Of a stretch of 64,000 nt of DNA, positions 30,065-31,406 are shown in pieces. Location: NCBI GenBank assembly GCA_963717935.1, contig CAVQXP010000002.1, positions 160,001 to 224,000 of the forward strand, in the 5' to 3' direction. The position numbers were made by a program, and so were the translations under genes. The notes under the pieces are model-generated. The model searched no databases. It worked only from the letters and a program-made list of their open reading frames with translations, and was not told the origin of the DNA. The stretch is from Candidatus Eiseniibacteriota bacterium (GTDB taxonomy: Bacteria > Eisenbacteria > RBG-16-71-46). How positions within the stretch are numbered: position 1 is the first letter of the stretch; every line of letters begins with the position of its first letter.

Positions 30065-30465
30065 ACATGACCCCCAAGGCGCTGATGGCGGAGGCGGTCA
30101 AGGCGCGCAAGCGCGCCTACGCGCCCTACTCGCGCTTCCCGGTGGGTGCCGCGCTGCTGGCGAAGGACGGCCGCGTGTATCTCGGCGGAAACGTGGAGAA
30201 CGCCTCCTACGGGCTCACGATCTGCGCCGAGCGCAGCGCGGTGTGGAAGGCCGTGAGCGAGGGCGTGACCGAGTTCACCGCCATCGCCGTGACCGCCCGC
30301 GACGGCCGCGGTGCCCCGCCCTGCGGCTCGTGCCGGCAGGTGCTGCACGAGTTCGCTCCGAACGTGTGGGTCTACTGGCGCGACGCGCGCGGGCGCATCC
30401 TCAAGCGGAAGCTCACGGAACTGCTGCCGAACGCCTTCAACCTGGCGGACCTGAGGAAGCGATGA
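30061..30465 (+). CDS. cdd: Cytidine deaminase (tetrameric type)
   Basis: [24 protein letters not shown] and PCGSCRQ motifs. Confidence 0.96.
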
Positions 30466-31406
30466 GCCGCGAACGCGAGGATCTGGTCGAGCTGATCACC
30501 CGGCAGGTGCTGCAGGCCCTGAAACGCGGGCCGGCGGCCGCCGGGAACCCGCCGGCAGCCCCGCGGGACGCGGCCGCGTGGCGCGCGACGCACGCGGTGC
30601 AGGACGCGGACCCCGCGACCGCCGACCGCTACCGTCTCTTCGGCGTCTCCACCTCGAGCGGGCCCGAGCACACGCGCGCGCTGCACGAGGCCGGTGCCGC
30701 GCGCGTGGTCGCGACCACGGGGTACAGCCCGGGCACGGACGGCCTCGCCTCGCTCATCGACCACACCCTGCTCAAGCCGGACGCGACCCGCGCGGACATC
30801 GAGAAGATCTGCCAGGAGGCGGCGCAGAACCACTTCGCCTCGGTCTGCGTGAACCCGGTGTGGGTGCCGCTCTGCCACGACCTGCTGAAGGGCAGCGGGG
30901 TGAAGGTGTGCACGGTGATCGGCTTCCCGTCGGGCGCGCACGCGCCCGACGTCAAGGCCTACGAGACGCGCCGCGCGGTGGAGCAGGGCGCCGAGGAAGT
31001 GGACATGGTCATCAACATCGGGGCGATGAAGTCCAAGGACTACGCGCTGGTCGAGCAGGACATCCGCGGCGTGGTGCAGGCCGCCGCTCCGGGCGCCCTG
31101 GTCAAGGTGATCCTCGAGACCTCGCTGCTGTCGCGCGAGGAGAAGATCATGGGCTGCACGCTGGCCAAGGCCGCGGGCGCGGACTTCGTCAAGACCTCGA
31201 CCGGTTTCGCGGGAGGTGGCGCCACGGTCGAGGACATCGAGTTGATGCGCGAGACCGTGGGCCCCGAGATGGGCGTGAAGGCCTCGGGCGGGGTGCGCAC
31301 GAAGGAGGACGCGGAGGCCCTGGTCGCCGCCGGGGCCACGCGCATCGGCGCCTCCGCGGGCGTGAAGATCGTGCGCGGCGAGAAGAACGAAGGGAAGGGT
31401 TACTGA
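30462..31406 (+). CDS. deoC: Deoxyribose-phosphate aldolase with a 94-aa N-terminal extension
   Basis: IDHTLLK, VIGFP, EVDMVIN, FVKTSTG and VKASGG motifs; ATGA overlap with cdd. Confidence 0.96.

What the first reader, a model, noticed from the sequence alone, without database searches (positions are those of the whole stretch)
30462..30743. DeoC carries a microcompartment encapsulation-peptide-like helix and a duplicated barrel element, with no shell genes nearby
Seen: a 94-aa extension before the DERA core. It contains an amphipathic helix [15 protein letters not shown] (30480-30524), a Pro/Ala linker, and a segment [14 protein letters not shown] that echoes the enzyme's own last alpha/beta unit ([14 protein letters not shown]). 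The start is supported by the ATGA overlap with cdd. Known: BMC cargo enzymes use amphipathic peptides of about 15-20 aa on flexible linkers; sugar-phosphate-utilisation (SPU) BMCs have DeoC as a signature enzyme; DeoC releases acetaldehyde, a classic sequestered aldehyde. Inference: deoB-cdd-deoC-pdp is a satellite locus feeding deoxynucleoside sugar into a microcompartment encoded elsewhere, or the extension drives shell-free assembly. The extension has no Cys.
Basis: partly seen in the sequence, partly recalled or inferred. Interest (0 to 1): 0.8.

Follow-up and report, generated by a model that had tools for sequence, protein, structure and literature searches.

The report
Microcompartment-targeted deoxyribose-phosphate aldolase in nucleoside operon
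This aldolase carries the N-terminal targeting tail typical of enzymes packed into bacterial microcompartments, the shell genes lie elsewhere in the same genome, and the case links a microcompartment type of unassigned function to the breakdown of DNA building blocks.

Summary
DeoC (window 30462-31406, 314 aa) has a 94-residue extension in front of a normal DERA core. It consists of an amphipathic helix (residues 3-21), a Pro/Ala linker, and a conserved module (about residues 50-91). That module is a degenerate copy of the enzyme's own last barrel quarter (profile-profile E 6.8e-7; 0 of 200 column shuffles reach the score).

The genome is a Candidatus Eisenbacteria MAG. It does encode a shell on another contig, in the order H, H, P, AldDH (with an N-terminal helix), Ts, P, P. 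A satellite BMC-Tdp and a distal helix-bearing RpiB with the SPU-type Cys-to-Asp change lie elsewhere. This layout matches the "MIC7" locus type of Sutter 2021, which has no signature enzyme assigned.

Across 151 genomes of the phylum, 73 of 73 extension-positive genomes have shell genes, and 0 of 49 shell-less genomes match the extension profile. Two shell-less relatives keep cdd-DERA-pdp with an extension-less DERA.

N-terminal extensions on SPU DERAs (Dwyer 2024) and distal EP-bearing DeoC (Sutter 2021, for HO loci) are already published. I found three points in none of the papers I read or searched:
- the placement in the deoB-cdd-deoC-pdp operon;
- the link to MIC7;
- the internal duplication.

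Encapsulation itself is inferred, not shown.

The parts
28898..30064 (+). deoB-like phosphopentomutase, with no N-terminal extension
   Evidence: Pfam Metalloenzyme, E 6e-33, residues 1-373. Found upstream of the DERA in 30 of 35 Eisenbacteria-type loci.
30067..30465 (+). cdd, cytidine/deoxycytidine deaminase; its stop overlaps the deoC start
   Evidence: Pfam dCMP_cyt_deam_1, E 1.5e-20. Found upstream of the DERA in 32 of 35 loci.
30462..31406 (+). Whole deoC (DERA) gene, 314 aa; the only DeoC-family gene found in the genome
30468..30524 (+). Amphipathic N-terminal helix (residues 3-21), the putative encapsulation peptide
   Evidence: AF2 helix at residues 3-21, pLDDT 79-90. Hydrophobic moment 0.66, rank 1 of 299 windows. 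L8, I12, T13 and V16 are invariant in 26 orthologues. The same helix is found on in-locus SPU DERAs of other Eisenbacteria families.
30525..30608 (+). Variable Pro/Ala/Gly-rich linker (residues 22-49)
   Evidence: 61% Pro, Ala or Gly. Length-variable and poorly conserved in A1 and A2. pLDDT 54-62.
30609..30743 (+). Conserved module (residues 50-94): a degenerate copy of DERA's own beta7-alpha7-beta8, lacking the catalytic Lys
   Evidence: hhalign probability 92%, E 6.8e-7; 0 of 200 column shuffles reach the score. G78, A79 and R81 are invariant in 132 sequences, mirroring G291, A292 and R294. The helix at 68-76 has pLDDT about 80.
30744..31406 (+). Catalytic DERA TIM-barrel core (residues 95-314)
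   Evidence: Matches PDB 6d33 at E 1.5e-85 over residues 94-312. D181, K244 and K273 are invariant in 132 sequences.
31412..32710 (+). pdp, pyrimidine-nucleoside phosphorylase
   Evidence: Pfam Glycos_transf_3, PYNP_C and Glycos_trans_3N. Found downstream of the DERA in 33 of 35 loci.

Best explanation
DeoC is the signature enzyme (cargo) of a sugar-phosphate-utilisation-type bacterial microcompartment whose genes are dispersed in this Candidatus Eisenbacteria genome.

Proposed pathway, with cytosolic steps first:
1. Cdd converts deoxycytidine to deoxyuridine.
2. Pdp converts pyrimidine deoxynucleosides to deoxyribose-1-phosphate.
3. DeoB converts that to deoxyribose-5-phosphate, which enters the shell.
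4. Inside the shell, DERA splits it into glyceraldehyde-3-phosphate and acetaldehyde.
5. The co-encapsulated aldehyde dehydrogenase oxidises acetaldehyde to acetyl-CoA.

DERA is held inside through its N-terminal amphipathic helix on a flexible linker.

The shell and AldDH are on contig C4, in the order H, H, P, AldDH, Ts, P, P. A BMC-Tdp lies on C1. A helix-bearing RpiB with Cys replaced by Asp lies elsewhere on C4.

Shown here: the gene content, the homology of the helix and module to those of in-locus SPU DERAs, the co-occurrence with shells, and the internal duplication.

Inferred: physical encapsulation, the substrate route, and any role of the duplicated module.
For: 1. The same genome has 5 BMC-domain and 3 EutN/CcmL matches. 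The satellite 210-aa protein matches BMC-Tdp HO-5816, CcmP and CsoS1D over its full length (E 2.9e-69).

2. The shell-locus AldDH and one of two RpiB genes carry N-terminal amphipathic helices followed by P/A/G/S-rich linkers (hydrophobic moment 0.63 each). That RpiB has Asp where Dwyer 2024 reports that all SPU RPIs replace the catalytic Cys. The other RpiB has neither feature.

3. In other Eisenbacteria families the order is RPI-DERA-H-P-AldDH-T-P-P, and their DERA starts with a homologous helix. Chloroflexota, Lindowbacteria and other DERAs inside shell loci carry the same helix plus GAxR module.

4. Phylum scan of 151 genomes. The extension profile hits 73 genomes, all among the 102 with a BMC-domain match; one of them, G098 (85% complete), has only a sub-cut-off match. 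It hits 0 of 49 genomes without a BMC match. In family f7, 0 of 32 genomes have BMC genes and 9 of 32 have a DERA, all core-only.

5. Natural controls. Shell-less G022 (f7) and G038 (own family, 98% complete) have cdd-DERA-pdp with only 24-30 nt between cdd and the DERA core, which leaves no room for an extension.

6. Of the four operon proteins, only DERA, the aldehyde-producing step, has an extension.

7. Dwyer et al. 2024 (passages and section 6 read) report that all SPU DERAs have such an extension. They also report that deleting it solubilises the enzyme.
Against: - No experiment shows encapsulation.
- The 23-position profile built from DERA-orthologue helices finds only DERA itself in the genome's 27,963 six-frame ORFs. 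It misses the AldDH and RpiB helices, so the three helices resemble each other in pattern only.
- The shell-locus AldDH of this assembly carries a 1-nt insertion that breaks the frame.
- No PTAC (PF06130) or class II aldolase was found, and the only RnfC_N protein belongs to an Rnf cluster. CoA and NAD recycling inside the shell is therefore unexplained.
- G066 (90% complete) has an extension by eye but no shell genes were found.
- 29 shell-positive genomes do not match the narrow extension profile.
- Related genomes are not independent samples.
- The counts include one unpublished genome, G015. Without it the counts are 72 extension-positive and 101 BMC-positive of 150.
Confidence: 0.8

Rival explanations
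1. The extension has a DERA-specific role unrelated to microcompartments, such as oligomerisation, regulation or metal binding. On this view its co-occurrence with shell genes reflects shared ancestry only.
For: The conserved module (residues 50-94) is far better conserved than a typical targeting linker. Many relatives carry 3-4 Cys there, which suggests a metal or redox site. The orthologue-helix profile does not detect the other cargo helices.
Against: Extension and shell genes are lost together in separate lineages: f7, G038 within f1, and parts of f8 and f13. The homologous extension sits on DERAs inside shell loci in at least four phyla. A module function and a targeting function are not mutually exclusive.
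Confidence: 0.08
2. In this particular genome the organelle is defunct because the AldDH is frameshifted, and the DERA extension is a relic. DERA would then act in the cytosol as an ordinary deo-operon enzyme.
For: There is a 1-nt insertion at L009:14031 (about nt 539 of the gene) relative to the same-genus genome G032.
Against: The extra base is missing from the contigs of 4 of 4 sediment metagenome runs laid on the site, and from G032. It is therefore private to this assembly and may be an assembly error. All 7 shell genes and DERA are open. Other genes near the shell locus also look fragmented, which suggests indel noise in the assembly (not quantified).
Confidence: 0.07
3. The helix and duplicated module drive shell-free self-assembly (a condensate or filament) of DERA rather than packaging into a shell.
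For: Dwyer 2024 found full-length SPU6 DERA insoluble and the N-terminal deletion soluble. The module duplicates barrel strands that could in principle swap between subunits.
Against: A complete shell gene set is present and co-occurs with the extension. In BMCs, EP-driven aggregation is regarded as part of cargo-core formation (Dwyer 2024), so it is not an alternative to a shell.
Confidence: 0.04
4. The start is mis-called and translation begins at the DERA core, so the extension is not made.
For: None beyond the Pfam domain starting at residue 98.
Against: ATGA coupling and an upstream GAGGAAG. There is no in-frame ATG, GTG or TTG between 30705 and 30849. Synonymous changes exceed amino-acid changes in close relatives. 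The extension is conserved at protein level in more than 120 clusters.
Confidence: 0.01

Closest known systems
SPU (sugar-phosphate-utilising) microcompartment DERA, as characterised for SPU6 of a Chloroflexi bacterium (Dwyer, Sutter and Kerfeld 2024, PMC11585597)
   Same: A DeoC-family class I aldolase with an N-terminal extension made of an amphipathic helix followed by a strand-containing region. It is accompanied by an EP-bearing AldDH, an RPI with the catalytic Cys replaced by Asp, and a BMC-P triplet. The Chloroflexota homologues are 53-55% identical and carry the helix and the GAxR module.
   Different: Here the gene is not in the shell locus. It sits between cdd and pdp in a nucleoside-catabolism operon on another contig, and RPI is also distal. 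The words 'nucleoside' and 'phosphopentomutase' do not occur in that paper's main text, nor do 'duplication' or 'TIM barrel'. I did not read its supplementary tables.
MIC7 locus type (Sutter et al. 2021 catalogue, supplementary file 4)
   Same: The catalogue describes it as found in Ca. Eisenbacteria and Latescibacteria and containing only an AldDh with an N-terminal EP besides shell proteins. The shell set is two BMC-H, a BMC-P triplet, a BMC-Ts, and a BMC-Tdp at a satellite site. The own genome shows exactly this set.
   Different: The passage read gives MIC7 no signature enzyme. Here an EP-bearing DERA and RPI are found elsewhere in the genome. I could not run the catalogue's own HMM and colour-clade classification.
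HO (Haliangium ochraceum-type) microcompartment with distal DeoC (Sutter et al. 2021 main text)
   Same: The paper states that some HO genomes have a pfam01791 enzyme at a different genomic location, some with an EP-like N-terminal extension, which could be encapsulated. The satellite Tdp here is most similar to HO-5816.
   Different: A different phylum and a different locus type. That passage does not describe the operon context.
Classical deo operon DERA (cytosolic)
   Same: The same reaction and the same neighbours (deoB, cdd, pdp). The core is 64-68% identical to Bacillota DERAs.
   Different: Those enzymes start at the core (matches begin at query residues 87-96) and have no shell genes nearby.

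Membership tests
DERA (DeoC family class I aldolase) | TIM-barrel DeoC domain with the Schiff-base Lys, second Lys and Asp (E. coli D102, K167, K201 as cited by Dwyer 2024) | tested here: met
   Pfam DeoC, E 2.9e-19. PDB 6d33 at E 1.5e-85. D181, K244 and K273 are invariant in 132 sequences. They correspond to the published Chloroflexi D165, K229 and K258 with a 2-residue numbering offset in L049. That mapping is my inference.
SPU-type microcompartment DERA | N-terminal extension (amphipathic helix plus strand region) that is absent from non-BMC DERA | tested here: met
   Core-only DERAs occur in shell-less genomes.
SPU-type microcompartment DERA | Encoded within a locus containing shell genes, usually next to RPI | tested here: not met
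   No shell genes on contig C2. No shell-gene hit in 35 of 35 orthologous loci within up to 10 kb on each side. RPI lies on C4.
SPU-type microcompartment (whole system) | AldDH with EP, RPI with EP and Cys-to-Asp change, BMC-P triplet, BMC-H and BMC-T in the same genome | tested here: met
   Gene order is collinear with in-locus SPU loci of sister families.
MIC7 locus type (Sutter 2021) | Only AldDh (N-terminal EP) besides shell genes; two BMC-H; P triplet; BMC-Ts; satellite BMC-Tdp; found in Eisenbacteria or Latescibacteria | tested here: met
MIC7 locus type (Sutter 2021) | Assignment by the catalogue's own shell and enzyme HMMs (BMC Caller) | not testable with these tools
   Those HMMs are not available here.
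Encapsulation peptide | Terminal amphipathic helix of about 15-20 residues on a poorly conserved linker, absent from non-BMC homologues | tested here: met
   The definition follows Dwyer 2024.
Encapsulation peptide | Recognised by an EP sequence profile | tested here: inconclusive
   A profile of 26 DERA-orthologue helices finds only DERA (E 4e-13) and not the AldDH or RPI helices. Published EP HMMs were not available.
Encapsulation peptide | Sufficient and necessary for packaging into shells | not testable with these tools
   Needs an experiment.
Encapsulin cargo (DeoC operons of Family 4 encapsulins, Andreas and Giessen 2021) | An encapsulin shell gene next to deoC or in the genome | tested here: not met
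   No PF04454 match in the genome. Neighbours are deoB, cdd and pdp. A-domain encapsulins were not searched for specifically.

The most novel reading that the evidence does not exclude
The conserved module behind the targeting helix is a leftover of a partial in-frame tandem duplication of DERA. It is an N-terminal, catalytically dead copy of beta7-alpha7-beta8 placed just before beta1. On this reading it can take the place of the C-terminal copy in its own or a neighbouring subunit. Strand exchange of that kind would polymerise DERA into the cargo core, or switch it between an inactive and an active barrel. The Cys-rich inserts of relatives (CxxC, CxxCx5CxxxC, CxxCxxCxxC) would add metal or redox control. 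This would be a cargo-assembly principle different from helix-only encapsulation peptides.
Probability: 0.12. Interest if true: 0.7.

Novelty: new member of a known kind. Interest (0 to 1): 0.4.

Why it matters
- **An enzyme for MIC7.** This locus type was catalogued as a metabolosome with only an aldehyde dehydrogenase. The finding gives it a candidate signature enzyme and predicted substrate (deoxyribose-5-phosphate), so MIC7 would be a dispersed form of the widespread SPU organelle.

- **A link to nucleoside breakdown.** The targeted DERA sits between cdd and pdp, behind deoB, in 30 or more related genomes. This is operon-level support for the published proposal that SPU compartments process DNA breakdown products. 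It also indicates that only the aldehyde-forming step is enclosed.

- **A caution for locus-based surveys.** Methods that collect genes near shell genes miss cargo encoded far away. Terminal extensions can find such cargo.

- **A structural question.** The internal duplication raises a concrete, testable question about how this cargo assembles.

Tried and rejected
- **EP profile.** A profile built from 26 DERA-orthologue helices was searched against all six-frame ORFs of the genome. It recovered only DERA, so it neither supports nor refutes a shared EP family.

- **Profile search of representatives.** Searching 1.84 billion representative proteins with the extension alignment gave 25 hits. Most were short fragments and three were long repetitive proteins, so it said nothing about spread.

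- **Complex prediction.** DERA core (residues 95-314) against the helix-bearing RpiB (residues 36-186) gave no verdict, with scores 0.00 and 0.00. This is not evidence either way.

- **First AF2 run.** With 20 sequences the module (residues 23-93) came out at pLDDT 30-40. The 132-sequence run raised the 68-76 helix to about 80, but no strands were called in the module. No coordinates could be inspected, so where the module packs is unknown.

- **Other BMC core enzymes.** No PTAC or class II aldolase was found. The single RnfC_N protein lies beside Rnf-Nqr and ApbE genes and is taken as RnfC, not PduS.

- **Encapsulin targeting.** No Linocin_M18 gene was found.

- **Sequencing runs.** No public run held half or more of the AldDH stretch (best share 0.27), so the source reads could not be checked.

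- **Earlier notes of this scan.** None on microcompartments in this genome.

- **DERA core tree.** Quick method, 95 rows. I left out L092, the extra DERA copies of L091, and L104. The deo-operon extended DERAs cluster (SH-aLRT 82) among BMC-associated DERAs, far from the core-only DERA of shell-less G022. The backbone is weak, the G022 branch is very long (2.5), and extension-less Bacillota DERAs nest inside. I therefore draw no firm conclusion on which gene displaced which.
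Full report
**What is there**

deoC starts at the ATG at 30462. This ATG overlaps the cdd stop codon (ATGA) and lies behind a GAGGAAG motif. The gene ends at 31406 and encodes 314 aa. Pfam places the DeoC domain at residues 98-302. All 27 solved DERA sequences found match the protein only from residues 89-97 onward; the best is 6d33, at E 1.5e-85 over residues 94-312. 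The gene lies in the cluster deoB (28898-30064), cdd (30067-30465), deoC, pdp (31412-32710). It is the only DeoC-family gene found in the genome, which is 3.02 Mb in 5 contigs and 93% complete.

**The extension is real and translated**

- More than 120 protein clusters share it at 69% identity or more, nearly all over at least 97% of the query.
- In the four closest relatives, synonymous-only codon changes outnumber amino-acid changes in the first 94 codons: 20 vs 6, 18 vs 11, 21 vs 13 and 19 vs 15.
- No in-frame ATG, GTG or TTG lies between 30705 and 30849.

**Anatomy of the extension**

1. *Helix, residues 3-21.* AF2 gives pLDDT 79-90 in both runs. It has the highest 15-residue hydrophobic moment of the protein: 0.66, rank 1 of 299 windows, reached by 1.9% of shuffles.
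2. *Linker, residues 22-49.* It varies in length and is 61% Pro, Ala or Gly.
3. *Conserved module, residues 50-94.* G78, A79 and R81 are invariant in 132 sequences from several phyla.

**The module duplicates part of the barrel**

On the 132-sequence alignment, extension residues 50-91 align with core residues about 252-304, which is the end of alpha6 plus beta7-alpha7-beta8. hhalign gives probability 92%, E 6.8e-7 and score 38.7. Shuffling the extension columns gives 9.9 +/- 1.8 with a maximum of 15.8, and 0 of 200 shuffles reach the observed score. The 26- against 20-sequence version gave P 4e-4.

The copy lacks the Lys that aligns with K273 of the core. AF2 places a helix at 68-76 (pLDDT about 80) but calls no strands in the module. 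I could not inspect coordinates.

**The shell exists elsewhere in the genome**

- *Main locus.* Contig C4 at about 2.0745-2.0780 Mb holds BMC-H, BMC-H, BMC-P, aldehyde dehydrogenase, a tandem-domain BMC-T, BMC-P and BMC-P. The BMC-T is closest to PduT-like chains.
- *AldDH.* It begins with an amphipathic helix followed by a Gly/Pro/Ala-rich linker (hydrophobic moment 0.63).
- *Satellite shell protein.* A 210-aa protein on contig C1 matches the double-stacking trimers HO-5816, CcmP and CsoS1D over its full length, at E 2.9e-69.
- *RpiB.* One of two RpiB genes (C4:988694) has an N-terminal amphipathic helix and a Pro/Ala/Ser-rich linker. It has Asp at the position where Dwyer et al. report that all SPU RPIs replace the catalytic Cys. 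The other RpiB has neither feature.
- *Not found.* No PTAC or class II aldolase was found. The single RnfC_N protein sits in an Rnf cluster.

**Organism and relatives**

The closest public records are Candidatus Eisenbacteria MAGs, up to 95% identical. I compared 79 loci with the genome's own proteins by tblastn.

| Group | Loci | Result |
|---|---|---|
| Eisenbacteria-type, extended DERA (L014-L048) | 35 | cdd upstream in 32, pdp downstream in 33, deoB in 30; no shell-gene hit in any, within up to 10 kb per side |
| Chloroflexota, a Lindowbacteria MAG, two uncultured bacteria | 9 | extended DERA lies inside a shell locus next to RPI, BMC-P and AldDH |
| Bacillota and other DERAs | rest | matches start at query residues 87-96; no shell genes |

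Most misses in the first group are at contig ends. L017 and L047 lack deoB even though upstream sequence is available.

Within the phylum, families f4, f8 and f10 have RPI-DERA-H-P-AldDH-T-P-P. This is collinear with the own shell locus apart from the two leading genes. Families f1 (own), f2, f9 and f12 have the extended DERA in the deo operon. The in-locus DERAs of f4 begin with a helix clearly homologous to the window's.

**Co-occurrence with shell genes**

I scanned 151 genomes sampled from the phylum.

| Feature | Genomes with a match |
|---|---|
| DERA | 120 |
| BMC domain | 102 (100 above the Pfam cut-off) |
| Extension-only profile (E <= 0.01) | 73 |

- All 73 extension-positive genomes are among the 102 BMC-positive ones. 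One of them, G098 (85% complete), has only a sub-cut-off BMC match.
- None of the 49 BMC-negative genomes matches the extension profile.
- Family f7 has 0 of 32 genomes with BMC genes. 9 of 32 have a DERA, and all those matches start at query residues 89-95.
- Two shell-less genomes keep cdd-DERA-pdp with only 24-30 nt between cdd and the DERA core: G022 (f7) and G038 (own family, 98% complete).
- In f13, the shell-less genomes G093, G111, G105 and G126 have short N-termini. G138 was not checked.

Results against the pattern:
- G066 (90% complete) shows an extension by eye but no shell genes.
- 29 shell-positive genomes do not match the narrow profile. Some of them have divergent extensions by eye.
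- Related genomes are not independent samples.
- One counted genome, G015, is unpublished. Without it the counts are 72, 101 and 119 of 150.

**Mechanism**

Only the aldehyde-forming enzyme of the operon carries an extension. The coherent reading is as follows:
1. Cytosolic Cdd, Pdp and DeoB convert pyrimidine deoxynucleosides to deoxyribose-5-phosphate.
2. [quoted passage not shown]
3. Encapsulated AldDH makes acetyl-CoA.

This is the scheme proposed for SPU compartments (Dwyer 2024, section 6). Encapsulation and substrate flow are inferences. How CoA and NAD are recycled without PTAC or an alcohol dehydrogenase is open. Dwyer et al. suggest exit of acetyl-CoA through BMC-Tdp in PTAC-less types, and a Tdp is present here.

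**What is known**

- Dwyer, Sutter and Kerfeld 2024 (outline, passages and section 6 read) state that all SPU DERAs have an N-terminal extension of an amphipathic helix and two low-confidence strands. They also state that it is absent from non-BMC DERA, is often missed by annotation, and renders the protein insoluble unless deleted.
- The main text of Sutter et al. 2021 (passages read) notes that some genomes with HO loci have a pfam01791 enzyme elsewhere with an EP-like extension.
- Its supplementary file 4 (passages read) describes MIC7. It lists six loci, found in Latescibacteria and Eisenbacteria. Each has only an AldDh with an N-terminal EP besides two BMC-H, a P triplet and a BMC-Ts, with a BMC-Tdp at a satellite site. 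No signature enzyme is given. The own genome fits this description.

I found none of the following in print: MIC7 linked to DERA, the deo-operon placement, or the internal duplication. The searches were:
- 'MIC7' + 'microcompartment': 1 irrelevant paper.
- 'Eisenbacteria' + 'microcompartment': 2 papers; passages of one say nothing about Eisenbacteria compartments, and the other was seen as a listing only.
- 'microcompartment' + 'phosphopentomutase': 3 papers held both terms and 2 were listed, neither about BMC DERA.
- 'microcompartment' + 'deoxyribose' + 'nucleoside phosphorylase': 0 papers.
- Within the two key papers, 'nucleoside', 'phosphopentomutase', 'duplication' and 'TIM barrel': 0 hits.

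I did not read Dwyer's supplementary tables. Subscription journals are not covered by these searches.

**Caveat for this genome**

The AldDH has one extra base at L009:14031 that breaks the frame. The base is absent in same-genus G032, and in the contigs of 4 of 4 sediment metagenome runs that cover the site. It may be an assembly error or a private mutation. The source reads were not available.

**Verdict**

The feature belongs to a published kind, EP-bearing SPU DERA. The added details I found in none of the papers read or searched are the MIC7 link, the deo-operon context and the quarter-barrel duplication. Interest is moderate.

Noticed in passing
G000 contig C4, L009:13492-14929 (frameshift at L009:14031): The shell-locus aldehyde dehydrogenase is split by a 1-nt insertion. 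The base is absent in same-genus genome G032 and in the contigs of 4 of 4 sediment metagenome runs.
   Followed up: partly
Extensions of DERA orthologues, e.g. L018-L045, L095:10028-10957, L097:9872-10735, L109:9743-10759, L085:9845-10759: Most relatives carry Cys motifs between the linker and the duplicated module. These include TCERC plus GYCP in the own family, CxxCx5CxxxC in f2 and f12, CxxCxxCxxC in f3 and f9, and CxxCx3Cx3C in an Acidobacteriota MAG. In the 132-sequence alignment, 68 have CxxC, 114 have Cys at position 89, and only 9, including the window, have no Cys. This may be a metal or redox site lost in the window's lineage.
   Followed up: partly
G000 contig C1, L010:8865-12977: The satellite BMC-Tdp gene (210 aa) lies directly upstream of a DUF485 gene and a sodium:solute symporter gene. 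That pair resembles acetate-permease pairs, but that resemblance is recalled, not tested here. It may hint at acetate handling linked to the organelle.
   Followed up: no
G000 contig C4, L112:6199-14803: The helix-bearing RpiB is flanked by a PRK/uridine-kinase-family gene, an M16-type peptidase, two genes without a Pfam match (296 and 776 aa), and an 805-aa protein. The 805-aa protein has ATP-grasp_5, CoA_binding_2 and Succ_CoA_lig domains, which I take to be ADP-forming acyl-CoA synthetase-like. It might convert acetyl-CoA to acetate plus ATP in place of PTAC.
   Followed up: no
L091 and L092 (one 34-kb contig of an uncultured bacterium): Four DERA copies with BMC-P and RPI genes lie in mirrored order on one contig. 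This is either a real inverted duplication of an SPU locus or an assembly artefact.
   Followed up: no
L080:about 9900-10723 (Candidatus Heimdallarchaeota chromosome): An archaeal DERA whose open frame upstream of the core holds the same GAxRIG-type module. Part of the upstream frame is masked. A 2025 preprint on Asgard microcompartments appeared in a search listing, but I did not read it.
   Followed up: no
L109 and L110 (genome G041, family f12): One genome has two extended DERAs. One is in deoB-cdd-DERA-pdp and one is next to RPI, about 7 kb from a BMC-P gene. This could be an intermediate in the relocation of DERA.
   Followed up: no
L009:1-12000 (upstream of the shell locus): Several transporter-like ORFs look broken into adjacent frames, which suggests indel noise in this assembly.
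   Followed up: no
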